DNA of 64,000 bases from an uncultured bacterium (lineage in GTDB: Bacteria; Vulcanimicrobiota; CADAWZ01). The notes under the pieces are model-generated. The model did not search any database. It saw only the letters and a list, made by a program, of their open reading frames with translations, and had not been told where the DNA came from. Numbering within the stretch: position 1 is the stretch's first letter; every line of letters begins with the position of its first letter. Shown in pieces: positions 23,515 through 62,859 of the stretch. Where the stretch lies: contig CASEKF010000015.1 of NCBI GenBank assembly GCA_949288455.1, forward strand, positions 18,132 through 82,131. The letters run 5' to 3'. Position numbers and translations under genes: made by a program.

Positions 23515-23518
23515 TCTT

Positions 23519-24859: not shown

Positions 24860-24860
24860 C

Positions 24861-42560: not shown

Positions 42561-42572
42561 GAGGAGACAATT

Positions 42573-42971: not shown

Positions 42972-42972
42972 A

Positions 42973-43905: not shown

Positions 43906-43920
43906 TTTAAAGACGCAAGT

Positions 43921-43958
43921 GAACCGGCATTTCTCCAGAATTTGCCGGTTCCGTTTTC
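43921..43958 (+). terminator. probable rho-independent terminator after mutase operon
   Basis: gaaccggca / tgccggttc 9-bp stem, 13-nt loop, followed by cgtttt. Confidence 0.45.
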
Positions 43959-43981
43959 AGATGCTTATAAAATAACTCATT

Positions 43982-45661
43982 ATGAATTCCTTAGAAGAAT
44001 TAAAAAATCATTTTTTCGAAAAAGCTAAAGCAGAATACAGAATTTATAAACGGCATATAGAATCCGAACAAAACAAACAAGGCAAAAACGGCGATTCGAC
44101 AAACGGCTTTCCTATTTTCATAGCGATTCTCAGTTTGATAAATTTCGACGAGAAACGTATAAGCGAAATATTGAACAGCGCGGACGCTCAAACTTATAAA
44201 CCGGAACAAATAATCTCGTTTCGTTCGCAAGACGAATTTTCCGATTTTACGGAAGGAATTTCCAAAGAGAATAAAGCGAATCGTTATTTGATAATCGCCG
44301 ACGCTTCGGTAATTTTCGAGCCTTTCGCTTTTTTTGAAGCCGGGAAATATATATCCGAAAACAACAATCCCGATTTAATATATTCGGACGAAGAACTTTT
44401 CGACAAAAACGAATCCGTACTTTTACCTTATTTTAAACCGGAATTCTCTCCCGATACTCTTAGAAGCTTTAACTATATAGGAAATTTCTTTATAGTTTCG
44501 GAGGAACTTTTTAAAAATTCCTCTCTTGAAAAAAATGAATTCGACATATATGATTTAATTTTAAAAACGAGCGAAAAAGCAAAAACAATAAAGCGAATTC
44601 CAAAAATACTTTTCCGCGCAGACATAGAATTTAAAGAAATCGGGAATGCGCATTCCCGCGCCGTATTAACGCGTCATCTCTCCAGAAAAGGATTAGAATT
44701 TTCCGAGATAACTTCCAATAAAGGCATAAATAAAATAACTTACAAAATCAAAAACAATCCTCCGGTTTCCATAATAATTCCTAATAAAAACAACGCCGCT
44801 TTATTAAAAAGATGCGTCGAATCAATAACTTCGAAAACGTCTTATAACCGCTATGAAATAATCATCGTCGAAAACGGCAGTTCCGAAATCGAAACTTTCA
44901 ACTATTACGATGTTGCGTCAAAAAACGCAGTCATAAAAGTTATCAATTGGAATAAACCGTTTAATTATTCTTCGATCAATAATTTTGCCGTTTCGAACGC
45001 TCAAGGAGAGCATATCGTTCTATTAAACAACGATATAGAAATCATAACGCCTAATTGGATAGAAGAAATGTTGGCTTTCAGCCAAAGGGAAGACGTGGGA
45101 GCCGTAGGCTGCAAATTGTTATATCCCGACGGCACTATTCAGCACGCCGGACTGACTCTAGGCATTTTCAAAAACGCCGTTCACACTCATCCGCGTTTCG
45201 GCGGAGAAGCTCTCGGATATTTCGGTCGCGTTTCTGCGGTCTCAAACGTATCGGCGGTAACCGGCGCATGTCTGATGACTCCAAGAAGCGTATACGAAGA
45301 ACTGGGCGGTCTTGAAGAAAAATATACCCTCGGATACGGAGATATAGATTACTGTCTCAAAGCGCGGAAAAAATATCTTGTGATATTTACTCCGTTCGCT
45401 CAGGGCATTCATCATGAATCTCTTACCCGAGGAACCGATCAGGACGGAACAGGAAGAAAACGAGCGGAAAAAGAACTGGCCGTTTTTCATAAAAGATGGG
45501 GAGAAAATTTGAAAGATCCGTATTATAATCCGAACCTTTCTCCGACGAAAAGAGACTATTCTTTAAACGATTTCGACTCGCGCTATATATCGGCGCTGCA
45601 AAATTCCGCGCCGTATAAAATCGGCAAAAAATTCGTCAATTTAATTAAAGGCATTTTTTAA
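43982..45661 (+). CDS. family 2 glycosyltransferase (GT-A), with degenerate N-terminal GT-A-like half
   Basis: PPVSIIIPNKNNAALLKRCVESITSKTSYNRYEIIIVENGS and VLLNNDIEI (DxD-type) motifs. C-terminal SAPYKIGKKF amphipathic motif. Confidence 0.75.
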   Translation: MNSLEELKNHFFEKAKAEYRIYKRHIESEQNKQGKNGDSTNGFPIFIAILSLINFDEKRISEILNSADAQTYKPEQIISFRSQDEFSDFTEGISKENKANRYLIIADASVIFEPFAFFEAGKYISENNNPDLIYSDEELFDKNESVLLPYFKPEFSPDTLRSFNYIGNFFIVSEELFKNSSLEKNEFDIYDLILKTSEKAKTIKRIPKILFRADIEFKEIGNAHSRAVLTRHLSRKGLEFSEITSNKGINKITYKIKNNPPVSIIIPNKNNAALLKRCVESITSKTSYNRYEIIIVENGSSEIETFNYYDVASKNAVIKVINWNKPFNYSSINNFAVSNAQGEHIVLLNNDIEIITPNWIEEMLAFSQREDVGAVGCKLLYPDGTIQHAGLTLGIFKNAVHTHPRFGGEALGYFGRVSAVSNVSAVTGACLMTPRSVYEELGGLEEKYTLGYGDIDYCLKARKKYLVIFTPFAQGIHHESLTRGTDQDGTGRKRAEKELAVFHKRWGENLKDPYYNPNLSPTKRDYSLNDFDSRYISALQNSAPYKIGKKFVNLIKGIF

Positions 45662-45699
45662 GATCAAAAATTTGACAAAAAGAAAGACCGAGTAATATA

Positions 45700-47001: not shown

Positions 47002-47004
47002 ACA

Positions 47005-48063
47005 TTGCGAAACGATAAGTTGGGAATAGCTTATAATATATTCGACGGAGAGGAAATTCTTCCGTTTTCAATAAGCGCTATAAGAAAAGAAGCGGATTAC
47101 ATAGCCGTCGTATATCAAAAAATAAGCAACGCGGGCGAAAAGGCCGCTCCTGACCTGGAAGATAAATTAAACGAATTAAAAAGGCTGAAACTCGCGGACG
47201 AACTATATCTATACGAGCCCGACTTAACGAAAGATCTCCATTTCAACGAAAAAAAGAAAAGGGATATCGGACTTCATTTAGTAAAAAAAGCCGGGTGCTC
47301 TTACTTTTTAAGCATGGACTGCGACGAATTCTACGAATCGGAAGAATTTGCGAGAGCAAAAAAATTTATAGCGGACAATGAAATAAAATCTTCCGCAGTA
47401 TCTATTTTAGAATATCTTAAAAAGCCCGAATACTTAATTTTAAACGGCTATACCTTCAATCACGGGTATGGAAACAGATACGCTTTTTACGTTCCTTTTA
47501 TAATGGACATAACAAACGAGGACTTAAACGGAAAAAAGACGCTTCATGGAGAGTCGTTCTTTCCGGTTCTTACGGATCCGACCAGAACGCTTAACGGCGC
47601 TCTTAAATTTTATCTTTTTCCAAAACATGAAATAGTTATGCGCCACATGTCAAGCGTAAGAGACAACTTAGAAATCAAATACAAAAACTCTTCTCTTAAT
47701 CAAAGACAAGACGAAGAGACTAAACTATTGATAGACGAGATAAAAAAGGATATTATCGACTTCAATTTTGAAAAAAATAAAATTTCAAATTCTCTTGCGA
47801 TATTCAGAGGATTGATAATAGAAAAGACAGACAATATCTTCAATATAAAATTACAAGGAGAGACAGAGGACACAAACTACGAGTCCGGCGAAGAAAACGC
47901 GTCCGATTTGAAATACCGGCTGCAGAGCTTAAAAGATAAATTGCTGACGGCGCAAACGGAATTAAAAACGATAAAAGAAAGCAAATCGTATAAATTGGCA
48001 AGCGCTTTAGCTTCCCTTGCGGCATATCCGAAGAATTTGTTACTCAAGCTTAAAAGGAGATAG
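47005..48063 (+). CDS. putative GT-A-like glycosyltransferase with C-terminal coiled coil
   Basis: TTG start. LSMDCDEFY is a DxD-like motif. C-terminal coiled segment and SKSYKLASALASL amphipathic motif. Assigned mostly from context. Confidence 0.4.
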   Translation: MRNDKLGIAYNIFDGEEILPFSISAIRKEADYIAVVYQKISNAGEKAAPDLEDKLNELKRLKLADELYLYEPDLTKDLHFNEKKKRDIGLHLVKKAGCSYFLSMDCDEFYESEEFARAKKFIADNEIKSSAVSILEYLKKPEYLILNGYTFNHGYGNRYAFYVPFIMDITNEDLNGKKTLHGESFFPVLTDPTRTLNGALKFYLFPKHEIVMRHMSSVRDNLEIKYKNSSLNQRQDEETKLLIDEIKKDIIDFNFEKNKISNSLAIFRGLIIEKTDNIFNIKLQGETEDTNYESGEENASDLKYRLQSLKDKLLTAQTELKTIKESKSYKLASALASLAAYPKNLLLKLKRR

Positions 48064-48066
48064 AGA

Positions 48067-50016
48067 ATGTTATTATCAGAGACTCGGGATACTTTAAAAG
48101 ACAAAGAATTTGGAGCCGGGTTAAATTCGGACGCACAACAATGCAAACTCATATACGGCTTGACTGCAAAAGAATTAAACGATCATCTGAAAAAGACTGA
48201 CTCAACCTTTTTAGATTTGTATAACGAATATAAAAGCGACGGCTGCTACTCGGCGGCAGCGGCGTTGTTCGAAAAGTTCGCAGACTTATTTCCCATAGAC
48301 GAGCGTATAAGCGAAGAAGCTAAGAATATTTTAAATTTAACAGTATTTTCATTTCAAAACGACGAAGACTTAAACGCCAATATTAATAAAATAAACAAAT
48401 TTCTCAGCGACAAAAACGAGAAAAAAACAATAGCGTTTTTTACTCACAGATGGATTACCGGAGGAATAGAAAAAGTTCTATCCACGCTGCTGTCTTTTAT
48501 GGATTCATATAATACGATTTTGATATCGCTTAAGCCGGTAAGCGAAGAAATACGCAGCGTGATAGAAATTCCTGAAAATACGATTCATATCATGTTGAGC
48601 GAATCGAAAATCGATAAAATATCCCATCGCCTCGCGTCTCTGTTGTCTATGCTTCATGCGGATATATTTATAGGGAACGTCCACTACGATAAATATATAC
48701 TTAAAATATACAAAATATTAAGTTATATGAAAATAAAAACTATCGCTTATATGCATTGTTCTTTTTTCATATATCATCGAATTTCGTATCTGAATCCGCT
48801 TATTCCAAAAATAAAAGAATCGCTGTCGTATGCCGACGCGGTAGTATGGCTGACAAACTTCAGTTTAAAATCGTATCAAATATCAAATAGAAACGGAATA
48901 AATATTCCGAATCCTTTAAACTTAACAATTTCCGACGTCTCTAAAACTCCTTCTAAAAATATCATCGCGGTAGGAAGATTCAAAGATCCGTTTAAACGGC
49001 TGGATCTGACGTTGAAAATTTTTAAAAAAGTACTGAACGATCATCAAGACGCCCAATTAACGATAGTAGGGCCTTACGATTTAAACGAGAAATGTCTGTA
49101 TTCGGAACAAACTTTCGAAGATATTATGAACGAACTGCAATTTCCGAAAGATAAGGTCGTTTTCGCAGGCGAACGAAAAGACTTAAAACCGTATTATGAA
49201 AAGGCGGCGGTTCTTCTGTTCACCTCGGAAATAGAAGGCTTTGGAATGGTTCTCGCCGAAGCCGGAGCATTCGGAACGCCTGCGGTTATATGCGATATTC
49301 CCGGTCTCGAAGATATTATAACCGACGGAGAAAACGGCTTTATATCGGATAAATATGATATAGACGGTATGGCGGAAAAAATAAATTATATTTTATCAAA
49401 TACGGACGTATTTATGGCAATGTCCGAAAAGGCTAAAAAACTTGTCAAAAGATTTGAAGCTCAATCCGTCGAGTCAAAATGGAAAGAGCTTATCGACGAA
49501 CTGATAAACGCAAAAACAAAAGAAGATATGGAACTTTTTTACCGCAAAAATGCGGAAAAAAATATTACTTCGCCCCAAGATATGATTCGCATTATAAAAG
49601 AATACGAAACGTCGGCTGCCGAAAATAATAAAGAGATAAAAGTCCTAACTCCCGCCATCGCTCGCTATCCGGTTCTTAATTTTATCTTTAATCAAATAGC
49701 TAACAACGCGGCTCTCCGTTTAACTTTCCTAAAGCCTGCGGAAACAATTTACGATTTACTTAAGGAAGAAAAAGAAATAAAAGCTATAGCCGAATCGAAA
49801 TATTTCGATAAAAAGTGGTATTTAAACAAATATCCCGAAGTAAAAAAGACAAAGACGGATCCTATAAAGCATTACGTAAAATTTGGCTGGAAAGAAGGTA
49901 AAGATCCGTCGCCGGATTTTAGCACTAACGATTATCTGGAGGAGCGTCCCGACGTAAAATATTCGGGAATATGTCCTCTTTATCACTGGCTAAAATTCGG
50001 ACAATACGGGAAGTAA
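48067..50016 (+). CDS. GT4 glycosyltransferase with conserved ~70-aa C-terminal tandem-motif domain
   Basis: RBS aaggag. GT4 motifs AVGRFKDPFKRLD and FTSEIEGFGMVLAEAGAFGTPAV...GENGF. C-terminus SKYFDKKWYLNKYPEVKKTKTDPIKHYVKFGWKEGKDPSPDFSTNDYLEERPDVKYSGICPLYHWLKFGQYGK. Confidence 0.75.
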   Translation: MLLSETRDTLKDKEFGAGLNSDAQQCKLIYGLTAKELNDHLKKTDSTFLDLYNEYKSDGCYSAAAALFEKFADLFPIDERISEEAKNILNLTVFSFQNDEDLNANINKINKFLSDKNEKKTIAFFTHRWITGGIEKVLSTLLSFMDSYNTILISLKPVSEEIRSVIEIPENTIHIMLSESKIDKISHRLASLLSMLHADIFIGNVHYDKYILKIYKILSYMKIKTIAYMHCSFFIYHRISYLNPLIPKIKESLSYADAVVWLTNFSLKSYQISNRNGINIPNPLNLTISDVSKTPSKNIIAVGRFKDPFKRLDLTLKIFKKVLNDHQDAQLTIVGPYDLNEKCLYSEQTFEDIMNELQFPKDKVVFAGERKDLKPYYEKAAVLLFTSEIEGFGMVLAEAGAFGTPAVICDIPGLEDIITDGENGFISDKYDIDGMAEKINYILSNTDVFMAMSEKAKKLVKRFEAQSVESKWKELIDELINAKTKEDMELFYRKNAEKNITSPQDMIRIIKEYETSAAENNKEIKVLTPAIARYPVLNFIFNQIANNAALRLTFLKPAETIYDLLKEEKEIKAIAESKYFDKKWYLNKYPEVKKTKTDPIKHYVKFGWKEGKDPSPDFSTNDYLEERPDVKYSGICPLYHWLKFGQYGK

Positions 50017-50076
50017 ACGCGCGGCAAACAAATTTTAAACCGACATCTCCCAAAAGCAAAAAGGAAGCAGATAAGC

Positions 50077-53000
50077 ATGAAAAATTCAAATCCTCCGGTT
50101 TCCATCGTAATTCCGGTTTACAACGGCTCGAATTACTTAAAATACGCGATAGACTCGGCTCTTAATCAAACGTATAAAAATATAGAGATAATAGTAATCA
50201 ACGACGGATCCGACGACGACGGAAAAACGGAAAAAACGGCTCTTTCATACGGAAATAAAATCAAATATTTCAAAAAAGAAAACGGAGGAGTCGCCACGGC
50301 TTTAAACTTAGCCATAGAAAAAGCTCAAGGAGAATATATATCCTGGTTAAGCCATGACGACGCGTATTACCCCGAAAAAACAGAAAAACAAATCGAGCGT
50401 CTTCAAACGTTCGGAAAAGACGCCGTAGTTATAAGCGATTACGAATATATAGATAAAAACGGAAACTTAATAAAAAAAGTAAAGATGAAAGACGGAATAG
50501 GCGACAATATAAAAGCCGCCTTAGCTTTAGGGAGTTGCCCGGAAGAAAGCGTCAACGGCTGCACGCTTCTTATTCCAAAAATCTTTTTTGAAAAATACGG
50601 ATACTTTGAGCCGGAATTAAAATATACCCAAGATTATTCGCTGTGGTTTAAAATAGCCTCTAGCGAACCTTTTATTCAGATGCCTTTATGCCTTGTAAAA
50701 TCGCGGCAACATGAGGAGCAGGATTCAAAAAAGGGAAACGAACGCCTGACGGAAGAAGTTAATAATCTTCACCGAAGGTTAATAGACGCTCTAACGGCAA
50801 AAGAGGCCGAAGACTTCTTCGTCAAGACCGGAAGCGCAATGACTCAGCCTCTGGATGCCTATCGAAACGCTAAATATTACGCGAGAACCGCGTCAATATT
50901 AAAAAAGCTTACCGAAATCAATTTTAAAAACGGCAGATTGTCCGCGGAGTTTACGGAGTATCTAAATAAAATTATTTTTAAATATCCTTCGGTCGATTTT
51001 GCAAACGCTTTTGAGACGGCTTTAAGAAAACTTGACGAAAACCATGATAAAATAAAAATTTTATTCTATGTTCACATATGGCAAAAAGGCGGAATAGAAA
51101 GAGTTTTATCGATCATACTTCCCCGTCTTGCGAAAAGATATACGATAATACTCGCATATACGGACAAAGCGGAGGCTCCGAACAAAGGTTTTTCTCTGCC
51201 TGAAAATATTATTAAAATTACGATTAACGATGATCACGACTCAAATATCGCGGAAAGACTGGATTATCTGCAAGCGGTTATTAAAGCCGACGTTTTCGTA
51301 AATACGACTCATATAAATAAACAAATTCTTCAATTATACGAATCTTTAAAACCTCAGAAAATAAAAGCGATAGCTTCAATGAACTGCAACTATTTTATAA
51401 ATTACGCTATCAACGGCTTAGAGTCAAATATTGCCGAACAAAATAAATATCTGCCTTACGCCGACGCCGTAACCTGGCTGACAAAATTTTATCTTTACCT
51501 ATACTCCGCTTCGCATGAAAACGGAATTTATATGCCGAACCCTCTGCCGTTTCAAATAAGCGGCCGAACAAAAAAACGCGGCAAAAATATCTTGGCGGTA
51601 GGACGATTTGACGATATCAATAAACGCCTCGACCTGACTTTAGAGGTATTTAAAAAAGTCCTTGACCGTCATAAAGACGCTAAATTGACTATAGTGGGAT
51701 CTTATGATAAGAACGCCGAGTTTCCGCAAAGGAACAACCAAACTCTGAACGTTATTCTAAAAAAGCTGGCGATACCTGAAGAAAATCTATGTTTTGCGGG
51801 GGAAAGAGAAAACGTAGACTCTTTTTATAAAAACGCCGATATATTCATAATGACTTCGGATACGGAAGGCTTGCCCAATGTCTTGCTTGAAGCGGGATGT
51901 TTCGCTCTCCCGTCGGTATTATTTGATATTCCCGGTCTCGAAGACGTTATAATCGAAGGCGAAAACGGTTTTATTATAGATAAATACGACGTAGAAGGTA
52001 TGGCGGACAAAATCAGCTTACTGTTTGAGGACGAAGAACTGTTTCAAAAAATGAGTTCCCAAACAGCAGCTTTAGCTTCCGAATTCGCGCCGGACAAAAT
52101 AATAAAAAAATGGACAGACTTAATAGAATCGCTTGTTCAAGGCGGAAACGCGTCTGACTCCGGCAAATCGGCGAAAATCCAATGCGAAATTACGCCTCCG
52201 ACTCAAAAATATCCTATTCAAACGGCGCGGCAGTTTAAACTGAACACCGAGCTTATACTCGAAAATAAATTAAAAACGCTTATCTCGCATAAAATTTTAA
52301 ACGTCCCCGGAATATCGCAAAACTTAGCCGAATTCAAGATCAGAAAAAAAGATAAGCCTATCGTTATGTTCCATATATTCGGCTGGCAGCGAGGAGGAAT
52401 GGAAAGAGCCCTGCAGACTCTGGCGAATTATCTGGCAAAAAAATACGAAGTAATAATAGCGGCTTGTCCTCCAGTAGCTAAACATGGATTTATACCGGAT
52501 AAAGACGTATGTTTTCTGCCGATACCGAAATACTTAAACATAATTTCAAATCTGGAAAAACTAATAAATTTCATAAAACCGGATGTTTTTATAGGAAACA
52601 ACAATAGCCTGCCGGAATTTTTCCCGATTTACGAAACTTTAAAAAAATTAAACGTAAAAACAATAGCTTACAACCATGAATCTTTTTTCTATATATATTC
52701 GCACGATTATCTGTACAAGTCGGCTCTGAAAAAACTGGATATGTTAAAATATGCGGATCTGGTCTTGTGGCTAACCCGTTTCAGCTTTAACGCATACTCT
52801 TTGTATAACGGCAACGGCTGCTATATTCCGAATCCGAATACTTTTTCGGCGGCGCAAAAAAACGAACACGCAACCAATACTAATTCAATCGTCGCGGTGG
52901 GCAGATTCAACGACTACGTTAAAAGAATAGATCGATTGCTAAAAATATTTAAAGAAATTTTAAAACTAAGGCCGGAAACCGTTTTGAACGTCGTAGGACA

Positions 53001-53991
53001 ATATGATTTGCGACTTAAATATGAAAGCGGCCGCACTATCGAAAGCTTAATCGAATCTTTAGAAATTCCGCCGGATAAATTAAAGTTTATAGGGGAAACA
53101 AACGACGTTGCGAAATATTATATGCAAAGCGACGTTTTTATAATGACTTCTCAAAGCGAAGGCATGCCGGCGGTAGTTACGGAAGCCATGACCTACGGAC
53201 TACCGGTAGTAATCATGGAAATACCGGGTCTGGAAGATCTCGTAGTAAACGGAGAAACCGGATATTCCGTCCCTCAGGACGATATCAAGGGAGCGGCGGA
53301 AAAAGTCCTCATGCTTCTGGACGACAAGGAGTTAAGACAGACGATCTCGGCGCGTCAGCAACAACATATACAACAATTCTCAATAGACAAAATAGGTCGA
53401 AAATGGGAAGAAATTATAAATGCGCTTATTGAAGGCAAACCCATACAACAAATAAACGATTCTAATCTTTATCAAAATGAAAAATTTCTGAAAAACATAG
53501 TAAAAGAATTTGAACAATACGCTGAAAAAATCGCCGCTATGCCGATAAACGAATTAGACAACCTGGAACAAGAGGGATATCTCGGAGTTCCGGAGCTCGT
53601 AAACGAAGCTTTGAGAACTGAGCTGGAGAATATAAAAAAATCTTGGCAAGCCGAACTGACGTATATAAAGAATTCTTGGTCATATAAAATAGGACGATGC
53701 ATAACAAAGCCTTTAAGTTTTATATACGAGTTTATAAAATTCAGGAACGAGGCCAAAACGGTAGAGCGTTCAAGTTTATTTAATAAAGCCTGGTATTTAA
53801 AAGAAAACCCCGACGTGGCGGAATCCGGAATGAATCCTGCTCTGCATTACGCTCAATTCGGCTGGAAAGAAGGAAGAGATCCCGGACCCGATTTCAGCTC
53901 AAACAGATATTTGGAAGAACGCCCGGACGTAAAATTTGCCGGGATGTGTCCCCTCTTTCACTATGAAAAATTCGGCAAACGCAATAAATAA
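50077..53991 (+). CDS. 1304-aa multidomain glycosyltransferase GT2-GT4-GT4 with the same C-terminal domain
   Basis: GT2: PPVSIVIPVYNGSNYLKYAIDSALNQTYKNIEIIVINDGSDD and WLSHDD. Two GT4 modules (MTSDTEGLPNVLLEAGCFALPSV; MTSQSEGMPAVVTEAMTYGLPVV). Coiled segment, NSWSYKIGRCITKPL helix, then the C-terminal domain SSLFNKAWYLKENPDV...HYEKFGKRNK. Confidence 0.8.
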   Translation: MKNSNPPVSIVIPVYNGSNYLKYAIDSALNQTYKNIEIIVINDGSDDDGKTEKTALSYGNKIKYFKKENGGVATALNLAIEKAQGEYISWLSHDDAYYPEKTEKQIERLQTFGKDAVVISDYEYIDKNGNLIKKVKMKDGIGDNIKAALALGSCPEESVNGCTLLIPKIFFEKYGYFEPELKYTQDYSLWFKIASSEPFIQMPLCLVKSRQHEEQDSKKGNERLTEEVNNLHRRLIDALTAKEAEDFFVKTGSAMTQPLDAYRNAKYYARTASILKKLTEINFKNGRLSAEFTEYLNKIIFKYPSVDFANAFETALRKLDENHDKIKILFYVHIWQKGGIERVLSIILPRLAKRYTIILAYTDKAEAPNKGFSLPENIIKITINDDHDSNIAERLDYLQAVIKADVFVNTTHINKQILQLYESLKPQKIKAIASMNCNYFINYAINGLESNIAEQNKYLPYADAVTWLTKFYLYLYSASHENGIYMPNPLPFQISGRTKKRGKNILAVGRFDDINKRLDLTLEVFKKVLDRHKDAKLTIVGSYDKNAEFPQRNNQTLNVILKKLAIPEENLCFAGERENVDSFYKNADIFIMTSDTEGLPNVLLEAGCFALPSVLFDIPGLEDVIIEGENGFIIDKYDVEGMADKISLLFEDEELFQKMSSQTAALASEFAPDKIIKKWTDLIESLVQGGNASDSGKSAKIQCEITPPTQKYPIQTARQFKLNTELILENKLKTLISHKILNVPGISQNLAEFKIRKKDKPIVMFHIFGWQRGGMERALQTLANYLAKKYEVIIAACPPVAKHGFIPDKDVCFLPIPKYLNIISNLEKLINFIKPDVFIGNNNSLPEFFPIYETLKKLNVKTIAYNHESFFYIYSHDYLYKSALKKLDMLKYADLVLWLTRFSFNAYSLYNGNGCYIPNPNTFSAAQKNEHATNTNSIVAVGRFNDYVKRIDRLLKIFKEILKLRPETVLNVVGQYDLRLKYESGRTIESLIESLEIPPDKLKFIGETNDVAKYYMQSDVFIMTSQSEGMPAVVTEAMTYGLPVVIMEIPGLEDLVVNGETGYSVPQDDIKGAAEKVLMLLDDKELRQTISARQQQHIQQFSIDKIGRKWEEIINALIEGKPIQQINDSNLYQNEKFLKNIVKEFEQYAEKIAAMPINELDNLEQEGYLGVPELVNEALRTELENIKKSWQAELTYIKNSWSYKIGRCITKPLSFIYEFIKFRNEAKTVERSSLFNKAWYLKENPDVAESGMNPALHYAQFGWKEGRDPGPDFSSNRYLEERPDVKFAGMCPLFHYEKFGKRNK

Positions 53992-54049
53992 CACGATATA
54001 ATTAAACAAACGCGCAAAAAACTAATCTTTCAAAAAAGGACGCGGAATT

Positions 54050-55084
54050 ATGAACGATATATTTAAGGATAAAACCCTAATGATCACAGGAGGAACGGGC
54101 TCTTTCGGGAACGCCGTTCTAAAACGCTTTTTACAAACCGATATAAAAGAAATACGCATTTTCTCAAGAGACGAAAAAAAACAGGACGATATGAGAAACC
54201 TCTATAAAAACGACAAAATAAAATTTTTTATAGGCGACGTCAGAGATTATCAAAGCGTAAAAAGCGCGATGTTCGGAGTAGATTACGTTTTTCAAGCCGC
54301 GGCTCTTAAACAAGTGCCTTCATGCGAATTTTTTCCAATGGAAGCCGTCCGAACAAATATTATGGGGACGGAAAACGTACTCAACGCCGCTATTGAAAAC
54401 AATATAAAAAAAGTGATATGTTTATCTACCGATAAAGCGGTCTATCCCATAAACGCGATGGGAATGTCAAAAGCTCTAATGGAAAAAGTCGCTATATCAA
54501 AATCGCGAAACGTTTCCGGCACGACTATAGCCGTAACGCGGTACGGAAACGTAATGGCTTCCAGAGGCTCGGTTATACCTTTATTTACGAAACAAATCAA
54601 AAGCAATTCTCCAATAACCGTAACGGATCCGCATATGACAAGATTTATGATGTCGTTGGACGACGCCATAGATCTAGTTCTATTCGCCTATAAGAACGCG
54701 AAAGGAGGAGAAATTTTCGTTCAAAAAGCTCCCGCTTCGACAATAAACGATCTGGCTCTGGCTATGAAGGAAATTTTCAGTTCGCATGTTCCGATAAAAT
54801 GCATAGGAACAAGACATGGCGAAAAATTATATGAAACTCTGCTTACGAGGGAAGAAAAAGTAAAAGCTAAGGATTTAGGAAATTACTTTATGGTTCCGCC
54901 CGATTCCAGGGACTTAAACTACGGGAAATATTTTGTAAACGGGGAAACGGTCATAACTCAGGCGGACGACTACAATTCTCACAACACAAGACGTTTATCG
55001 CTAAGCGAAACGGCGGAGCTTCTGAAAAAACTCGACTATATACGCCAAGAACTATCAGGCGAACCGCACGACGAGGGGTATTAA
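54050..55084 (+). CDS. UDP-GlcNAc 4,6-dehydratase/5-epimerase of the CapE/FnlA/WbjB (or WbvB) type
   Basis: TLMITGGTGSFGNAVLKRFL Rossmann motif. The active-site segment PINAMGMSKALMEK has Met-x3-Lys in place of the SDR Tyr-x3-Lys, as described for CapE-type enzymes. 344 aa. Confidence 0.8.
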   Translation: MNDIFKDKTLMITGGTGSFGNAVLKRFLQTDIKEIRIFSRDEKKQDDMRNLYKNDKIKFFIGDVRDYQSVKSAMFGVDYVFQAAALKQVPSCEFFPMEAVRTNIMGTENVLNAAIENNIKKVICLSTDKAVYPINAMGMSKALMEKVAISKSRNVSGTTIAVTRYGNVMASRGSVIPLFTKQIKSNSPITVTDPHMTRFMMSLDDAIDLVLFAYKNAKGGEIFVQKAPASTINDLALAMKEIFSSHVPIKCIGTRHGEKLYETLLTREEKVKAKDLGNYFMVPPDSRDLNYGKYFVNGETVITQADDYNSHNTRRLSLSETAELLKKLDYIRQELSGEPHDEGY

Positions 55085-55088
55085 TAAA

Positions 55089-56207
55089 ATGAAAGTAACG
55101 ACTATGGTAGGAACCAGACCCGAAATAATCAAACTCAGCTGCGTCATAGAAGCTCTGGATAAATATACGGAACACACTCTGGTTCACACGGGACAAAATT
55201 ACGACTATGAATTAAACGGCATTTTTTTTGAAGAAATGGGGATAAGAAAACCGGACGCATTCCTTGAAGCCGCCGGGACAAACGCCGCGGAAACAATCGG
55301 AAACGTCATAATTAAATCGGACGAATTTTTGCGAAAGGAAAAACCGGACGCGTTTCTCATATACGGAGATACAAATTCTTGTCTATCCGTAATATCGGCA
55401 AAAAGGCTGCATATCCCCGTATTTCATATGGAAGCCGGCAACAGATGTTTCGATCAACGCGTTCCGGAAGAAATCAACAGGAAAATAGTAGATCATTTAA
55501 GCGATATCAACATGACGATAACCGAGCATGCCAGACAATATCTCATACGGGAAGGAATTTCCCCCGAAACCGTGATAAAAGTCGGTTCCGGTATGAAAGA
55601 AGTCTTGATAAAACAAAAAGCCAACATAGAAAAAAGCGACGTTTTAAAGAAATTGTCTCTAACTCCCGGAGATTACTTTGTCGCCAGCGCTCACAGGGAG
55701 GAAAATACCGACTATCAAGACAACTTCCAAAATCTTTTGGAATCCCTTGAGGCTCTCGCCGCTACGTATAATAAAAGAATAATTTTTTCCACTCATCCCA
55801 GAACGAGAAAACTTCTGGACAAACTTAATATAAAACTAAACCCTCTTATAGAATTTCTTAAACCGTTAAGCTTCGCGGATTATATCAAGCTGCAGCGGAA
55901 TTCCCGATGCGTCGTATCGGACAGCGGCACGATCACCGAAGAAGCGTCCGTTTTAAAATTTCCGGCCGTAATGATAAGAAACGCTCATGAGAGGCCTGAA
56001 GGAATGGACGAAGGAACGCTGATAATGTGCGGTTTAAAAAAGGAAAGCGTACTAAAGGCGGTAGAGACGGCAGCCTCTCTTCATGCAGTCGCCGCGCCGG
56101 CAACGGTTAAAGATTACGATACCGACTGCGTCTCTTCCAAAGTAGTTAAAATAATAATGAGTTATACGGAATATATCGAAAGAACAGTATGGAAAAAAAT
56201 GAGGTAA
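55089..56207 (+). CDS. non-hydrolysing UDP-N-acetylhexosamine 2-epimerase (WecB/CapG/FnlC family)
   Basis: MVGTRPEIIKLS, YGDTNS and the SDSGTITEEA region. 372 aa. Confidence 0.85.
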   Translation: MKVTTMVGTRPEIIKLSCVIEALDKYTEHTLVHTGQNYDYELNGIFFEEMGIRKPDAFLEAAGTNAAETIGNVIIKSDEFLRKEKPDAFLIYGDTNSCLSVISAKRLHIPVFHMEAGNRCFDQRVPEEINRKIVDHLSDINMTITEHARQYLIREGISPETVIKVGSGMKEVLIKQKANIEKSDVLKKLSLTPGDYFVASAHREENTDYQDNFQNLLESLEALAATYNKRIIFSTHPRTRKLLDKLNIKLNPLIEFLKPLSFADYIKLQRNSRCVVSDSGTITEEASVLKFPAVMIRNAHERPEGMDEGTLIMCGLKKESVLKAVETAASLHAVAAPATVKDYDTDCVSSKVVKIIMSYTEYIERTVWKKMR

Positions 56208-56211
56208 AAAG

Positions 56212-57063
56212 ATGAAAATAGCGGTTTTAGGAGCCACCGGAATGGCCGGACACGTCATCTCGATTTTTTTTAAAGAAAAAGCTGCGGAAGTTTACGAAAC
56301 GTCAAGAAGCGTTCGAGAAGCTCCCGGATCTAAACGGATAGACGCGACCGATTCCGAATCGCTTATAAATTGGCTTAAAGAAATAAATCCCGACGTTATT
56401 GTTAACGCTATCGGGCTATTACAAAAAGCTTGTTCGGAACGACCGGATCTTGCGATTAAAATAAATTCTTATCTTCCTCAAAAATTAGCTTTTGAATTTA
56501 AAAAAGCAAAAGCCAAAATAATTCACCTGAGCACCGACTGCGTTTTTTCGGGCAAAAACGCGCCTTATAAAGAAGATTCTTTTAAAGACGGAGACACTTT
56601 GTACGACAGAACCAAAGCTCTGGGAGAAATAATCAACGATAAAGATTTGACTTTAAGAATGTCAATTATAGGTCCGGATATAACTCCTGAAGGAACCGGG
56701 CTTTTCAACTGGTTCTGTAAACAAACGGGAACAATTAACGGATACGCTAAATGTTTTTGGAACGGAATCACTACGATAGAGCTGGCTAAAGCTATCGAAG
56801 CGGCTATAAAACAAAACGTAACCGGCCTGTATAATCTAGTTCCTAAATTTAATATATCAAAATATGAATTGCTTCTGCTTTTTAAAACTGTTTTTAACAG
56901 GCAAGACGTGGAAATTATTCCGTCTGAAATAGTTAACGTAAATAAAACTTTAATAAATACAAGAACAGATTTTAATTACTCTATTCCCTCTTACAAAACC
57001 ATGATAAAAGAAATGGCGGAATGGATAAATTACCATAAAGATTTATATTATTTCGCAAAATAA
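56212..57063 (+). CDS. RmlD-like NAD(P)-dependent sugar-nucleotide 4-reductase
   Basis: MKIAVLGATGMAGHV Rossmann motif and HLSTDCVFSGKNAPYKEDS...LYDRTKALGE (Y-x3-K). 283 aa. Confidence 0.7.
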   Translation: MKIAVLGATGMAGHVISIFFKEKAAEVYETSRSVREAPGSKRIDATDSESLINWLKEINPDVIVNAIGLLQKACSERPDLAIKINSYLPQKLAFEFKKAKAKIIHLSTDCVFSGKNAPYKEDSFKDGDTLYDRTKALGEIINDKDLTLRMSIIGPDITPEGTGLFNWFCKQTGTINGYAKCFWNGITTIELAKAIEAAIKQNVTGLYNLVPKFNISKYELLLLFKTVFNRQDVEIIPSEIVNVNKTLINTRTDFNYSIPSYKTMIKEMAEWINYHKDLYYFAK

Positions 57064-57073
57064 AGGATCAAAA

Positions 57074-57508
57074 ATGGAAAAACCTTACTTAATAGAAGGC
57101 GGAATCTTCAAAGACGAAAGAGGCGTAATTGCTCATGTAAACGCCTTTGACTTCAGTTCCGTAAAACGTTTTTACACAATAGAAAATACTTCCCGTAAAA
57201 CTATAAGGGCGTGGCAGGGACACATTGAAGAGCGAAAATTTTTTTACGCGATAAAAGGCAAATTCTATATAGCATACGTTAAAATAGACAATTGGGAAAA
57301 CCCTTCGAAAGATCTGAAAGCAGAATGCAAAATCCTTTCCGATCTCAAAAGCGAAATTCTGTATATACCGGCAGGCTACGCCAACGGCATAAAAGCTTTG
57401 GAAGAAAATTCAAAACTACTGGTTTTTTCAACTCTAAGCATTGAAGAAGCCGTTAAAGAAAAAATAAGATACGATAAGAATTTATGGGTAAATTGGGAAA
57501 CGCTATGA
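57074..57508 (+). CDS. small cupin, WxcM/FdtA-like or CapF-C-terminal-like sugar-nucleotide isomerase/epimerase
   Basis: 144 aa. KRFYTIENTSRKTIRAWQGHIEERKFFYAIKGKFYI resembles the cupin core of FdtA/WxcM-type proteins. Sits inside the sugar-nucleotide operon. Confidence 0.5.
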   Translation: MEKPYLIEGGIFKDERGVIAHVNAFDFSSVKRFYTIENTSRKTIRAWQGHIEERKFFYAIKGKFYIAYVKIDNWENPSKDLKAECKILSDLKSEILYIPAGYANGIKALEENSKLLVFSTLSIEEAVKEKIRYDKNLWVNWETL

Positions 57509-58647
57509 TATATAAATATACTTCCGACTCTTTTTTCAGGGAAATAAAACTGTTTTTCCACGATGCGGAAACCGTATTGGATATAGGCTGCGGAGTGCGG
57601 CCGTGTTTGGATATTATTCCCAAAACTCATATTTGCCTGGATCCCAGCAAAGAATATATGGATATTCTGAAATCTTGTCATCCTAAAAATACTCAATACA
57701 TATTTTTAAATACGGACGCGTTAACAGGATTAAAAACCTTTGCCGATCTAAGCGTAGATACAGTTTTGGCTCTGGATCTAATAGAACATCTTAAGAAAGA
57801 AGACGGATTTGAGCTTTTAAAAGAAGCGGATAGAGTAGCTAAAAAACAAATTATATTTTTTACGCCTTTAGGCTTCGTTTCAAACGAACAAACAGACTCG
57901 GATACCGACGCATGGGGACTTCATGGAAAAGAACTGCAAAAACACAGAAGCGGTTGGCTCCCCGAGGATTTCGGCGACGCCTATGATTTTCATATCTGCG
58001 AAACGCTGTACAAGAAAGAAACTCATACGGCTAAGGTAGATAAAGATTTCGGAGCGTTTTACGCAATTAAAAATAAATTCTATAAAGAAACCTCTCCCCT
58101 TCCCGAAACTCCGTTATTCGTTAAAGAAGCGGCTCAGAAACAAGAGCCGAATTTTTATGACAAAATTCTGCAAAGCAAGGAAGCGCAAATTAAAAATCAA
58201 AACGAACTACTTAAAAATCAAAATGAACAGATTAAAAATCAAAGCGAACAGATTAAAATTCTAAACGAACAGATCAAAAATCAAAACGAACAATTAGAGA
58301 AAATAAATTTATCATTAGCAATAATACGAAAACATCCGTACTTCAAACTACGACGGCTAGCTAAAAAATATATTATCAGGCCTATAAAAAGTCTAATAAA
58401 CGACGAAGTAAAAACGGTAAGCAATTCCGCGTTTTTCAATAAAAAATGGTATCTTGAAGAATATGACGACGTAAGAAAAGCTAGTATGGATCCCGCGAAA
58501 CATTACGTTAAATTCGGGTGGAAAGAAGGAAGAAATCCCGGGCCCGACTTTAACGGCGAAGACTACCTCGATAAAAGACCCGACGTGCGGGAAGAAGAAA
58601 TGTGCCCTCTGTATCACTATGAAAAATTCGGAAAATACGAAATATAA
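57505..58647 (+). CDS. class I SAM-dependent methyltransferase - coiled coil - conserved C-terminal tandem-motif domain
   Basis: ATGA stop/start overlap with the cupin gene. SAM motif I VLDIGCGVRP. Heptad repeats QIKNQNE. C-terminus SAFFNKKWYLEEYDDVRKASMDPAKHYVKFGWKEGRNPGPDFNGEDYLDKRPDVREEEMCPLYHYEKFGKYEI. Confidence 0.7.
   Translation: MIYKYTSDSFFREIKLFFHDAETVLDIGCGVRPCLDIIPKTHICLDPSKEYMDILKSCHPKNTQYIFLNTDALTGLKTFADLSVDTVLALDLIEHLKKEDGFELLKEADRVAKKQIIFFTPLGFVSNEQTDSDTDAWGLHGKELQKHRSGWLPEDFGDAYDFHICETLYKKETHTAKVDKDFGAFYAIKNKFYKETSPLPETPLFVKEAAQKQEPNFYDKILQSKEAQIKNQNELLKNQNEQIKNQSEQIKILNEQIKNQNEQLEKINLSLAIIRKHPYFKLRRLAKKYIIRPIKSLINDEVKTVSNSAFFNKKWYLEEYDDVRKASMDPAKHYVKFGWKEGRNPGPDFNGEDYLDKRPDVREEEMCPLYHYEKFGKYEI
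58186..58311 (+). repeat. six imperfect tandem 21-bp repeats encoding heptads (QIKNQNE)n
   Basis: Units start at 58186, 58207, 58228, 58249, 58270 and 58291: caaattaaaaatcaaaacgaa / ctacttaaaaatcaaaatgaa / cagattaaaaatcaaagcgaa / cagattaaaattctaaacgaa / cagatcaaaaatcaaaacgaa / caattagagaaaataaattta. Confidence 0.85.
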
Positions 58648-60273: not shown

Positions 60274-60313
60274 TCGACTTCAGTCTAGAGCGACGAACAA
60301 CTTAAATTTACGT

Positions 60314-61234: not shown

Positions 61235-61257
61235 AAAGGCGTATTCTCCCTTCGCGA

Positions 61258-62844: not shown

Positions 62845-62859
62845 AGAAAGCCTCTGATA

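What the first reader, a model, noticed from the sequence alone, without database searches (positions are those of the whole stretch)
48067..58647. Three unrelated glycan enzymes end in the same ~70-aa tandem-motif C-terminal domain
**What the sequence shows**
- The GT4 protein (domain at about 49793-50013), the 1304-aa GT2-GT4-GT4 protein (53764-53988) and the SAM methyltransferase (58420-58644) all terminate in a near-identical module.
- The module is (F)(N/D)KxWYLxx(x)PDV-x6-(D/N)PxxHYxxFGWKEG(R/K)xPxPDF-x4-YLxxRPDV-x5-CPLxH(Y/W)xKFG.
- By my hand alignment the 1304-aa protein and the methyltransferase share 44 of 70 positions. Their catalytic parts are unrelated.
- The module is itself an internal duplication: two copies of YL..PDV...P..HY..FG.
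- It always sits at the extreme C-terminus. In the 1304-aa protein and the methyltransferase it follows a coiled segment and a short amphipathic motif: NSWSYKIG and HPYFKLRRLA.
- Related motifs, SKSYKLAS and SAPYKIGKKF, close two further glycosyltransferases of the cluster.

**Interpretation**
- I cannot attach a characterised function to this module.
- A shared terminal module on a polymerising glycosyltransferase set plus a modifying methyltransferase suggests a common docking or targeting device. It could co-localise the enzymes on the membrane, on each other, or on an acceptor.
- This would be conceptually like WbdA recruitment by WbdD in the E. coli O9a system, but with a different sequence.
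Basis: partly seen in the sequence, partly recalled or inferred. Interest (0 to 1): 0.72.

Follow-up and report, generated by a model that had tools for sequence, protein, structure and literature searches.

The report
Shared helical-repeat tail on glycan enzymes
Two sugar-chain-building enzymes and a methyltransferase in one gene cluster all end in the same small folded tail, which is two copies of a very widespread but undescribed 38-residue repeat found next to a membrane-binding helix on glycan-assembly enzymes in many bacteria; it probably places these enzymes at a shared site on the membrane.

Summary
Three ORFs end in the same ~72-aa module: GT4 (48067-50016), GT2-GT4-GT4 (50077-53991) and methyltransferase (57484-58647). 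The copies share 55-62% aa identity and are the only copies in the window.

The module is not a private domain. It is two units of a 38-aa all-helical repeat (LFDxxWYLxxNPDVAxAGxNPLxHYLxxGxxEGRxPxP). A profile of the three copies hits 24,407 protein clusters, some with ~20 tandem units. Pfam-A, NCBIfam and PDB hold no match. AlphaFold2 folds it confidently (pLDDT 94.6) and Foldseek finds no PDB relative.

The repeat sits almost only on enzymes that act on a glycan polymer: GT2, GT4, RgpF, WbsX, methyl- and sulfotransferases. Their clusters often hold Wzm/Wzt transporter genes. A basic segment almost always precedes it.

The window's methyltransferase reads MT, coiled coil, basic helix, module. 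This is the WbdD-type chain-terminator layout. Fused proteins elsewhere, including one on an E. coli plasmid, show terminator, coiled coil, "SWRxTxPL" helix, repeat pairs, polymerase GTs.

Best reading: a membrane-proximal targeting or hub element of a polymerase-terminator complex. Binding is inferred, not shown. "Always C-terminal" holds only here, and only 9 of 32 related loci have two or more carriers.

The parts
48067..50016 (+). GT4 glycosyltransferase, 649 aa, soluble, ending in the two-unit repeat module
   Evidence: ORF. Pfam Glycos_transf_1 at residues 294-458. No TM-like segment.
49798..50013 (+). Module copy 1: two 38-aa repeat units (KYFDKKWYL...HWLKFGQYGK); net charge +5
49645..49731 (+). 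Hydrophobic/helical segment before module copy 1 (LTPAIARYPVLNFIFNQIANNAALRLTFL); not basic
   Evidence: Sequence. The 45 aa upstream of the module have net charge 0.
50077..53991 (+). GT2-GT4-GT4 three-module glycosyltransferase, 1304 aa; candidate polymerase
   Evidence: Pfam Glycos_transf_2 at residues 9-133 and two Glycos_transf_1 stretches. No TM segment.
53671..53742 (+). Amphipathic basic helix motif NSWSYKIGRCITKPLSFIYEFIKF. It is a local version of the recurrent SxSWRxTxPL motif that precedes repeat pairs elsewhere.
   Evidence: Hydrophobic moment 0.70, charge +3. The same motif occurs in L022 (TSWSYRIGKAITAP), L020 (SLSWRITRPLR), P0004 and the E. coli plasmid GT1787.
53773..53988 (+). 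Module copy 2: two 38-aa repeat units (SLFNKAWYL...HYEKFGKRNK); net charge +1
   Evidence: AlphaFold2 model of this copy: pLDDT 94.6, pTM 0.84, seven short helices.
57484..58647 (+). Class I SAM methyltransferase with coiled coil, basic helix and module, 387 aa (380 aa if started at the ATG seven codons downstream, at 57505, as other assemblies call it). Candidate chain terminator or modifier.
   Evidence: Pfam Methyltransf_11. AlphaFold2 model. Homologues are MT + coiled coil + basic C-terminal helix.
58153..58329 (+). Long helix, residues 224-282: predicted coiled coil of the methyltransferase
   Evidence: It is encoded partly by a 21-nt tandem repeat, 5.2 copies, at 58189-58296.
58336..58422 (+). 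Basic amphipathic helix, residues 285-313 (HPYFKLRRLAKKYIIRPIKSLI...)
   Evidence: The 45 aa upstream of the module have net charge +9.
58429..58644 (+). Module copy 3: two 38-aa repeat units (AFFNKKWYL...HYEKFGKYEI); net charge -3
   Evidence: pLDDT 97-98 in the full-length model.
45602..45658 (+). C-terminal basic amphipathic tail NSAPYKIGKKFVNLIKGIF of the 559-aa GT2; no repeat module
   Evidence: Hydrophobic moment 0.54, charge +4.
47977..48060 (+). C-terminal tail ESKSYKLASALASLAAYPKNLLLKLKRR of the 352-aa protein without a family; no repeat module
   Evidence: No Pfam or PDB match for this protein.

Best explanation
**What it is**
- The ~72-aa tail is a pair of units of a widespread, uncurated 38-residue all-helical repeat.
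- Together with the basic or amphipathic helix just upstream, it forms the membrane-proximal end of enzymes that act on a lipid-linked glycan at the cytoplasmic face of the inner membrane.

**Proposed roles in this cluster**
- The GT2-GT4-GT4 protein and the GT4 protein are the chain-extending enzymes.
- The methyltransferase, with its coiled coil, is a WbdD-type chain modifier or terminator.
- The shared pair brings all three to the same membrane-surface site, so that polymerisation and end-modification happen in one complex. The site could be the membrane interface itself, a common partner, or the lipid-linked acceptor.

**Shown**
- The homology of the three copies.
- The size and make-up of the repeat family.
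- The confident fold prediction.
- The restriction to polymer-acting enzymes.
- The flanking basic segment.
- The conserved order: terminator, coiled coil, helix, pair, polymerase.

**Inferred**
- That the pair binds anything.
- What it binds.
- That the methyltransferase terminates chains.
For: 1. **Three old, selected copies on unrelated soluble enzymes.**
2. **Very large family.**
   - The profile hits 24,407 clusters at E<=1e-3 and 15,776 at E<=1e-10.
   - The period is exactly 38 aa.
3. **Carriers are polymer-acting enzymes.**
   - In 32 genomic loci the carriers have GT2 (11), RgpF (10), GT4 (9), WbsX, TupA-like ATP-grasp, methyltransferase, HAD/phosphoribosyltransferase and kinase domains.
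   - The 55 top hits show the same kinds.
   - Plasmid annotations agree: glycosyltransferase, methyltransferase, sulfotransferase.
   - Sugar-nucleotide enzymes in the same clusters lack the repeat.
4. **Neighbourhoods point to ABC-transporter-dependent assembly.** Among 148 neighbouring ORFs are ABC_tran (8), Wzt_C (3), ABC2_membrane (3) and many sugar-nucleotide enzymes.
5. **A basic segment precedes the pair.** The 45 aa before a pair have median charge +6, against 0 for control windows (Mann-Whitney p = 6.6e-13).
6. **The methyltransferase has the terminator layout.**
   - The model shows MT domain, helix 224-282, helix 285-313, then the module.
   - Its homologues in Vibrio, Rhizobium and others are MT + heptad coiled coil + basic C-terminal helix.
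   - This is the layout described for WbdD-type terminators (PMC11231755).
7. **The same order recurs in fused proteins.**
   - P0004: MT, coiled coil, STIWRMSKPIRR, 17 units, GT2, GT4.
   - E. coli plasmid GT1787: sulfotransferase-like N-terminal region (assigned from sequence motifs, not scanned against Pfam), 11-aa x 22 coiled coil, NSNSWRITKPLR, two pairs, then GT region. It lies next to two genes annotated ABC transporter permease and ATP-binding protein (Wzm/Wzt by position and size).
8. **Confident fold.** pLDDT 94.6, pTM 0.84.
Against: - No binding test of any kind was possible.
- Only 9 of 32 related loci have two or more unit-bearing ORFs within about 20 kb. Docking between module-bearing proteins therefore cannot be the general function.
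- This cluster, followed to its end in other assemblies, holds no Wzm/Wzt, Wzx/Wzy or initiating transferase. The export route here is unknown.
- Module net charge varies from +5 to -3. The module is not itself a uniform anionic-lipid binder.
- The GT4 protein lacks the basic upstream segment.
- The repeat also occurs on a few secreted proteins: an M10 protease with RTX repeats and a GH16-like glycanase. There a cytoplasmic membrane hub makes no sense.
- Arrays of about 20 units are hard to explain as a simple tag.
Confidence: 0.45

Rival explanations
1. The repeat is a carbohydrate-binding element, a CBM-like helical repeat. Each unit or pair holds the nascent or finished polysaccharide. On biosynthetic enzymes it would give acceptor affinity or processivity. 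On secreted glycanases and proteases it would tether them to the polymer.
For: - The one thing all carriers share is a glycan substrate. They include synthases, methyl- and sulfotransferases, and also a secreted GH16-like glycanase and M10 proteases.
- Arrays of up to about 20 units suit binding along a polymer.
- The module is very rich in aromatic residues and histidine: 14-17 of 72 residues.
- There is a precedent for a small C-terminal helical domain that binds acceptor sugars in an O-polysaccharide glycosyltransferase: WrtF (PMC12595478).
Against: - Modules within one cluster are no more alike than modules from unrelated phyla. Only 9 of 43 have their nearest neighbour in the same locus, mostly within the same protein. 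The window's three copies are about 60% identical to each other and 62% identical to a copy in L001, an alphaproteobacterial genome. Adaptation to a cluster-specific glycan would predict otherwise.
- The conserved positions look structural: helix N-caps (D/N-P), Gly/Pro turns and core aromatics.
- There is no sequence or fold match to any CBM or to WrtF in PDB.
- The constant basic flanking segment is not explained.
Confidence: 0.25
2. The repeat is an inert structural element: a rigid spacer, ruler or stabilising cap. It sets distances between catalytic modules and the membrane, as coiled coils do in WbdD and WbbB. It has no specific ligand.
For: - Unit number varies from 2 to about 21, and arrays lie between catalytic domains.
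- The conservation pattern resembles that of a structural solenoid.
- The pairs sit at domain junctions in multi-domain enzymes.
Against: - In the window the pair is the extreme C-terminus, so it spaces nothing.
- P0004 and GT1787 already have a long coiled coil in addition to the repeats.
- Orthologous positions keep high identity across genomes, for example 97% between L001 and L002. This suggests a surface under selection.
- Small free-standing 2-3-unit proteins may exist on long contigs, although at least one may be a split gene.
Confidence: 0.15
3. The similarity is trivial: a recent duplication, gene conversion, low-complexity sequence or chance.
For: None beyond the three genes lying close together.
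Against: - DNA identity is 65%, with third codon positions at about 51%.
- E-values between copies are about 1e-30.
- There are thousands of homologues in many phyla.
- The fold prediction is confident.
Confidence: 0.01

Closest known systems
WbdD-WbdA terminator-polymerase complex of E. coli O9a / Klebsiella O3 (ABC-transporter-dependent O-polysaccharide assembly)
   Same: - A methyltransferase with an N-terminal catalytic domain, an extended coiled coil and a C-terminal membrane-proximal amphipathic helix.
- Multi-module GT polymerases in the same cluster.
- The membrane-proximal end is where polymerase and terminator meet (PMC11231755; model).
   Different: - There is no kinase domain.
- The MT domain is a generic class I fold, and WbdD is not among the top 50 Foldseek matches.
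- WbdD and WbdA are not reported to share a common repeat module.
- Here the same module is on both polymerase proteins and on the methyltransferase.
- No Wzm/Wzt genes lie in this cluster.
Single-polypeptide terminator-ruler-polymerase proteins (Klebsiella O12 WbbB; Klebsiella O7 ORF6)
   Same: Fused relatives of the window module (P0004 and the E. coli plasmid GT1787) have terminator domain, coiled coil, then polymerase GTs. This matches WbbB and ORF6-O7 (PMC11231755).
   Different: - Those relatives insert the SWRxTxPL helix and 2-17 repeat units between the coiled coil and the GTs. The paper read here (PMC11231755) does not mention such a repeat for WbbB or ORF6-O7; their sequences were not examined.
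- The window splits the functions over three polypeptides.
Dockerin modules of cellulosomal enzymes
   Same: A module of about 70 aa, itself an internal duplication, at the C-terminus of catalytically unrelated carbohydrate-active enzymes. This is the same logic of a portable address tag.
   Different: - There is no Dockerin Pfam match and no EF-hand calcium loops.
- The context here is cytoplasmic.
- No cohesin-like partner has been identified.
- The repeat also forms long arrays.
TPR / Sel1-type helical repeats
   Same: A short all-helical repeat (34-44 aa in those families, 38 aa here) that forms arrays and often mediates protein-protein contacts.
   Different: - There is no TPR or Sel1 Pfam match.
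- The model has four short helices per unit rather than a helix-turn-helix.
- No fold match exists in PDB.
C-terminal alpha-helical acceptor-binding domain of WrtF (Rhizobium tropici O-polysaccharide fucosyltransferase)
   Same: A helical domain of about 67 aa at the C-terminus of an O-polysaccharide glycosyltransferase, which contacts the acceptor sugars (PMC12595478).
   Different: - No sequence or fold similarity was detected.
- The WrtF domain is described as unique, not as a repeat.

Membership tests
38-aa 'FDxxWYL-NPDV-NPLxHY-GxxEGRxP' repeat family (uncurated; defined here) | Consensus positions F2, Y7, L8, P12-D13-V14, P21, H24-Y25, G29 | tested here: met
   All six window units carry them except P12 (D in unit 1 of the methyltransferase copy), D13 (E in unit 1 of the GT4 copy) and Y25 (W in unit 2 of the GT4 copy). 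Family frequencies are 0.69-0.96 over 1,441 units.
38-aa 'FDxxWYL-NPDV-NPLxHY-GxxEGRxP' repeat family (uncurated; defined here) | Fixed 38-residue period, with units occurring in pairs | tested here: met
   798 unit spacings equal exactly 38; the next most frequent value, 76, occurs 50 times. Related loci carry mostly 2, 4 or 6 units per protein. The window has one pair per protein.
38-aa 'FDxxWYL-NPDV-NPLxHY-GxxEGRxP' repeat family (uncurated; defined here) | Basic or amphipathic segment immediately upstream of the pair | tested here: met
   Met for the methyltransferase (+9) and the 1304-aa protein (+4, hydrophobic moment 0.70). Not met for the GT4 protein (0). Family median is +6 against 0 for controls, p = 6.6e-13.
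WbdD-type coiled-coil chain terminator | N-terminal terminating enzyme domain (methyltransferase, with or without kinase) | tested here: met
   Methyltransf_11 at residues 32-122. No kinase domain.
WbdD-type coiled-coil chain terminator | Extended coiled coil after the catalytic domain | tested here: met
   A single 59-residue helix at 224-282 with pLDDT 91-96 from residue 231 on. The heptad repeat is encoded by a 21-nt tandem repeat. The oligomeric state was not tested.
WbdD-type coiled-coil chain terminator | C-terminal membrane-associating amphipathic helix | tested here: inconclusive
   A helix at 285-313 is predicted, and the 45 aa upstream of the module have net charge +9. Membrane binding was not tested.
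WbdD-type coiled-coil chain terminator | Sequence or structural relationship to WbdD | tested here: not met
   The top 50 Foldseek PDB matches of the model are generic class I methyltransferases. WbdD is not among them.
WbdD-type coiled-coil chain terminator | Genetic linkage to a Wzm/Wzt ABC transporter | tested here: not met
   None lies in 43982-64000 or in the two genes beyond the window end seen in other assemblies. The ABC genes at 21794-23514 are followed by ABC_transp_aux and DUF4340 genes and carry no Wzt_C domain. Linkage is seen in related loci.
WbdD-type coiled-coil chain terminator | Caps the non-reducing end and sets chain length; recruits the polymerase | not testable with these tools
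   Needs biochemistry and genetics.
Dockerin | Match to the dockerin profile; duplicated calcium-binding loop-helix | tested here: not met
   No Pfam hit even at E<=10.
TPR / Sel1 repeats | Match to TPR or Sel1 profiles; helix-turn-helix unit | tested here: not met
   No Pfam hit. The model has four short helices per unit.
Carbohydrate-binding modules | Homology to a known CBM, or demonstrated sugar binding | tested here: not met
   No Pfam, PDB-sequence or PDB-fold match. Sugar binding itself cannot be tested here.

The most novel reading that the evidence does not exclude
The 38-residue repeat founds a very large helical-repeat fold with no solved relative. It would work as a portable, dockerin-like address code for cytoplasmic glycan assembly lines. 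Pairs placed next to a basic membrane helix would bring polymerase, modifier and terminator modules to one membrane-surface hub. Longer arrays would set the geometry between them. This would explain how separately encoded enzymes form the complexes that control chain length in ABC-transporter-dependent pathways across many phyla.
Probability: 0.25. Interest if true: 0.8.

Novelty: new variant of a known kind. Interest (0 to 1): 0.6.

Why it matters
**The open question**
- In ABC-transporter-dependent polysaccharide synthesis, polymerases and terminators must form a membrane-bound complex.
- How they do so is understood for only a few enterobacterial models. A recent study of Klebsiella O4 and O7 states that interactions form the complex, with the coiled-coil protein as a scaffold, and that it is unclear what dictates how the modules are distributed (PMC11231755).

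**What this finding offers**
- A compact, confidently folded, easily recognised repeat sits at the membrane-proximal junction.
- It occurs in more than 24,000 protein clusters and is absent from Pfam, NCBIfam and PDB.
- This gives a concrete, testable candidate for the assembly or targeting element.

**Minimum value even if the mechanism is wrong**
- It deserves a curated family model.
- Such a model would improve annotation of thousands of 'glycosyltransferase' and 'hypothetical protein' entries.

Tried and rejected
**Database searches that found nothing**
- Pfam-A and NCBIfam scans of the proteins, the isolated modules and a consensus three-unit sequence, up to E = 10: no family. The scattered hits DUF5813, DUF7669, B12D and PDC10_C seen on multi-repeat proteins are short partial matches, inflated by repetition.
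- PDB sequence searches with two profiles: zero hits at E<=10.
- Foldseek against PDB: best E = 8.

**Limited or uninformative searches**
- The word-indexed homologue search returned only short proteins of at most 135 aa for the short query. It was useful as an alignment for AlphaFold but not for architectures.
- The genome-contig scan did not find the source species; the best match was 62%.
  - An OEP/MacAB system shows it is diderm.
  - The same cluster occurs, with GT4 gene nucleotide identity of at least 99.5%, in at least 8 metagenome assemblies.
  - That variation is too small for a selection test.
- The viral-contig scan with the narrow patterns found nothing.

**Literature**
- Searches for the motif strings and for descriptions of such a repeat found nothing.

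**Ideas rejected**
- Recent duplication or gene conversion.
- Concerted evolution of modules within a cluster.
- A uniformly basic membrane-binding module (charges +5, +1 and -3).
- Transmembrane anchoring of the six plus-strand enzymes.
- RTX or type I secretion as the general context: only one of the 153 proteins scanned has even one GGxGxD motif.

Full report
**1. The observation**

ORF listing confirms three plus-strand genes:
- a 649-aa protein at 48067-50016;
- a 1304-aa protein at 50077-53991;
- a 387-aa protein at 57484-58647.

Pfam assigns them GT4 (Glycos_transf_1); GT2 plus two GT4 modules; and a class I SAM methyltransferase.

Their last ~72 residues align without gaps.
- 33 of 77 columns are invariant.
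- Pairwise identity is 55-62%.
- tblastn of each tail against the whole window finds the other two at E about 1e-30 and nothing else below E = 0.1. There are exactly three copies.
- DNA identity is 65% and only about 51% at third codon positions. The copies are old paralogues kept by selection on the protein, not a recent duplication or gene conversion.

None of the six plus-strand enzymes of the cluster has a transmembrane-like segment.

**2. What the module is**

No curated resource holds it.
- Pfam-A and NCBIfam give no hit, even at E = 10.
- Two profile searches of PDB sequences give no hit.

It is nevertheless very common.
- A profile of the three copies, searched against 1.84 billion cluster representatives, finds 24,407 proteins at E<=1e-3.
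- 15,776 of these are at E<=1e-10 and 3,318 at E<=1e-30.
- The best hits contain up to about 21 tandem units.
- The unit spacing is exactly 38 residues in 798 cases; the next most frequent spacing, 76, occurs 50 times.

The consensus unit is LFDxxWYLxxNPDVAxAGxNPLxHYLxxGxxEGRxPxP. F2 and Y7 are 96% conserved, H24 89%, G29 88% and P21 87%.

The second unit is cut short after its third helix.

AlphaFold2 gives a confident compact model.
- The input was a 126-sequence alignment.
- The result is pLDDT 94.6 and pTM 0.84, with seven helices: four short ones in the first unit and three in the truncated second.
- Foldseek finds nothing in PDB; the best E is 8.
- In the viral library there are only weak matches, which are intriguingly to giant-virus glycosyltransferases.

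**3. Where the repeat occurs**

A pattern scan of one genome per species returned 32 loci. They come from:
- gut Alphaproteobacteria;
- Gastranaerophilales;
- Bacteroidota;
- Verrucomicrobia;
- Desulfovibrio;
- Mucispirillum;
- Halomonas;
- Pararhizobium.

The source species itself is not in that collection.

*Carriers.* The carrier proteins have these domains:

| Domain | Proteins of 32 |
|---|---|
| GT2 | 11 |
| RgpF | 10 |
| GT4 | 9 |

WbsX, TupA-like ATP-grasp, methyltransferase, TOD1, GT92, HAD/phosphoribosyltransferase and a kinase domain also occur.
- The 55 shortest of the top hits give the same picture.
- So do the annotations of 112 plasmid records: glycosyltransferase, methyltransferase, sulfotransferase, GH99-like.

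*Neighbours.* Among 148 neighbouring ORFs from 15 loci:
- GT2 (11), ABC_tran (8), Wzt_C (3) and ABC2_membrane (3);
- many sugar-nucleotide enzymes, all of which lack the repeat;
- no Wzx or Wzy family among the 25 commonest families.

The repeat thus travels with enzymes that act on the polymer, not with those that make precursors. Its clusters are typical of ABC-transporter-dependent assembly.

*Exceptions.* A few carriers are secreted-type proteins:
- an M10 protease with RTX repeats and eight units;
- a GH16-like glycanase.

*Position in the protein.* Position is not fixed. The pair starts within the first 40 residues of the protein in 19 of the 32, is internal in several and C-terminal in four.

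**4. Context inside the proteins**

Two features are constant.

*First, a basic segment precedes the pair.*
- The 45 residues before a pair have median net charge +6, against 0 for control windows of the same proteins (p = 6.6e-13).
- They often contain an SxSWRxTxPL-like helix.
- The window's NSWSYKIGRCITKPL (hydrophobic moment 0.70) is one version.
- L022 has TSWSYRIGKAITAP and L020 has SLSWRITRPLR.

*Second, the order of parts recurs.*
- The full-length methyltransferase model shows:
  - catalytic domain, residues 1-197;
  - a disordered linker;
  - one 59-residue helix, 224-282;
  - a second helix, 285-313;
  - the module, at pLDDT 97-98.
- The long helix is partly encoded by a 21-nt tandem repeat.
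- Its homologues in Vibrio cholerae, Rhizobium and many others are methyltransferase + heptad-repeat coiled coil + basic C-terminal helix. Of the 120 listed hits, only the near-identical (99%) copy of the window's own protein, P0274, carries the repeat.

This is the design described for chain terminators of ABC-transporter-dependent O-polysaccharide synthesis. The catalytic domain is distal, a coiled coil acts as ruler, and the membrane-proximal end carries an amphipathic helix and the polymerase recruitment site (PMC11231755).

Fused proteins show the repeat exactly at that junction.
- P0004 reads methyltransferase, long coiled coil, STIWRMSKPIRR, 17 units, GT2, GT4.
- A 1787-aa protein on E. 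coli plasmid pKTa005_1 reads:
  - a sulfotransferase-like N-terminal region, assigned from sequence motifs and not scanned against Pfam;
  - a 22 x 11-aa coiled coil;
  - NSNSWRITKPLR;
  - two pairs;
  - the GT region.
- That plasmid gene lies next to rfbBDAC, cysDNC and two genes annotated ABC transporter permease and ATP-binding protein, which I read as Wzm/Wzt from their position and size.

**5. Mechanism**

The best-supported reading has three parts.
- The pair, with its upstream helix, is the membrane-proximal targeting or hub element of polymer-acting enzymes.
- In this cluster it brings two chain-extending glycosyltransferase proteins and a coiled-coil methyltransferase, a likely chain modifier or terminator, to one site.
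- The site is unknown: the membrane interface, a shared partner, or the lipid-linked acceptor.

What is shown is homology, distribution, predicted fold, flanking features and conserved order. What is inferred is any binding and its target.

- Only 9 of 32 loci have two or more unit-bearing ORFs nearby. Module-to-module docking cannot be general.
- The module's charge varies from +5 to -3.
- The cluster holds no transporter, flippase, polymerase or initiating transferase. This was checked by following it two genes beyond the window end in other assemblies. The pathway assignment here therefore rests on analogy.

**6. Rivals**

*Glycan binding.*
- For: it unifies the biosynthetic and secreted carriers, and it suits long arrays and the high aromatic content. 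WrtF offers a precedent for a small helical acceptor-binding domain (PMC12595478).
- Against: modules of one cluster are no more alike than modules from unrelated phyla, and the conserved positions look structural.

*Pure spacer or ruler.*
- For: variable unit numbers.
- Against: a terminal pair spaces nothing, and the fused proteins have coiled coils as well.

*Chance or recent duplication.* This is excluded.

**7. Comparison and novelty**

The system works like the WbdD/WbdA and WbbB family of polymerase-terminator complexes. It is not a member by sequence.
- The methyltransferase is a generic class I fold, with WbdD absent from the top 50 structural matches.
- There is no kinase domain.
- Wzm/Wzt is not linked.

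The module resembles a dockerin in logic only. It is not TPR, Sel1 or a known CBM.

I found no description of the repeat in the searchable literature. A family this large has probably been seen informally.

I rate the finding as a new variant of a known kind. It is a known type of assembly line that uses an undescribed, very widespread repeat at its junction. Interest is 0.6.

Noticed in passing
window 58189-58296: The methyltransferase's coiled coil is encoded by a 21-nt tandem repeat (5.2 copies, 82% matches) giving IKNQNEQ heptads. Homologous methyltransferases and the E. coli plasmid protein also build their coiled coils from short tandem repeats (ELNTVTQ x6, QNQLADS x7, an 11-aa unit x22). 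Repeat slippage could change ruler length. The genes called for this methyltransferase in three other assemblies are all 380 aa, as expected from the downstream start, so there is no sign of length variation.
   Followed up: partly
window 58661-63807 (minus strand) and two genes beyond the window end (L046 7965-9998): A second gene set holds two polyprenyl-phosphate glycosyl synthase-like GT2s (PpgS/AglJ-like, 260 aa; PgfS-like, 315 aa), a 528-aa polytopic protein with no family, two xylose-isomerase-like TIM barrels, an RmlD-like protein and an FAD oxidoreductase (DAO). It looks like a system for periplasmic addition of a lipid-linked sugar that may be oxidised, reduced or epimerised first.
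   Followed up: partly
window 54050-57508: FnlA-like UDP-GlcNAc 4,6-dehydratase/5-epimerase (E = 1.5e-163 but below the equivalog cut-off), a WecB-type 2-epimerase, an RmlD-like reductase and a separate 144-aa cupin. This is a pathway for a 2-acetamido-2,6-dideoxy-L-hexose (L-FucNAc, L-QuiNAc or L-RhaNAc type). The cupin ORF overlaps the methyltransferase start by 25 nt.
   Followed up: partly
model of window 53761-53988 against BFVD: The weak but consistent best matches in the viral structure library (E = 0.015-0.12, probability 0.82-0.99) are giant-virus proteins: glycosyltransferases, a DUF5672 protein, an uncharacterised protein and a dTDP-sugar reductase (Hyperionvirus, Harvfovirus, Fadolivirus). 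The repeat may also occur in giant-virus glycan enzymes. A narrow pattern scan of viral contigs found none.
   Followed up: partly
L049 (E. coli plasmid pKTa005_1, NZ_CP147085.1, 50179-74394): A conjugative IncF plasmid carries a complete-looking polysaccharide cluster: rfbBDAC, GT2, an ABC transporter permease and ATP-binding protein (Wzm/Wzt by position), the 1787-aa protein (sulfotransferase-like N-terminus, coiled coil, repeat pairs, GT region), a second GT and cysDNC. This suggests a sulfated rhamnose-containing glycan. The 1787-aa gene occurs in only 1 of 5,426 complete E. coli genomes.
   Followed up: partly
P0102, P0111; plasmid hits H1, H24: A minority of carriers are secreted-type proteins: an M10 (serralysin-like) protease with RTX repeats and eight units running to the C-terminus; a GH16-like protein with seven units; and plasmid genes annotated 'M10 family metallopeptidase' and 'calcium-binding protein'. 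This is unexplained under a cytoplasmic hub model.
   Followed up: partly
window 47005-48063: A 352-aa protein inside the glycosyltransferase run has no Pfam, NCBIfam or PDB-sequence match. It ends in a coiled segment and a basic tail (ESKSYKLAS...LKLKRR). It may be an unrecognised glycosyltransferase or a scaffold.
   Followed up: partly
window 40914-53991 compared with L038-L045; 54050-63807 compared with L046-L048: The whole cluster keeps identical gene sizes in the metagenome assemblies examined. In the eight that cover the GT4 gene, that gene is at least 99.5% identical in nucleotides. The cluster is therefore a stable trait of this uncultured species rather than a hypervariable serotype locus.
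   Followed up: yes
window 13629-19481; 21794-26141; 26163-26873: Elsewhere in the window there are three unrelated items: a 1950-aa protein combining a Ser/Thr kinase domain with very many TPR repeats; an ABC transporter set (ABC_tran, ABC2_membrane, ABC_transp_aux, DUF4340); and a small RTX calcium-binding protein.
   Followed up: no
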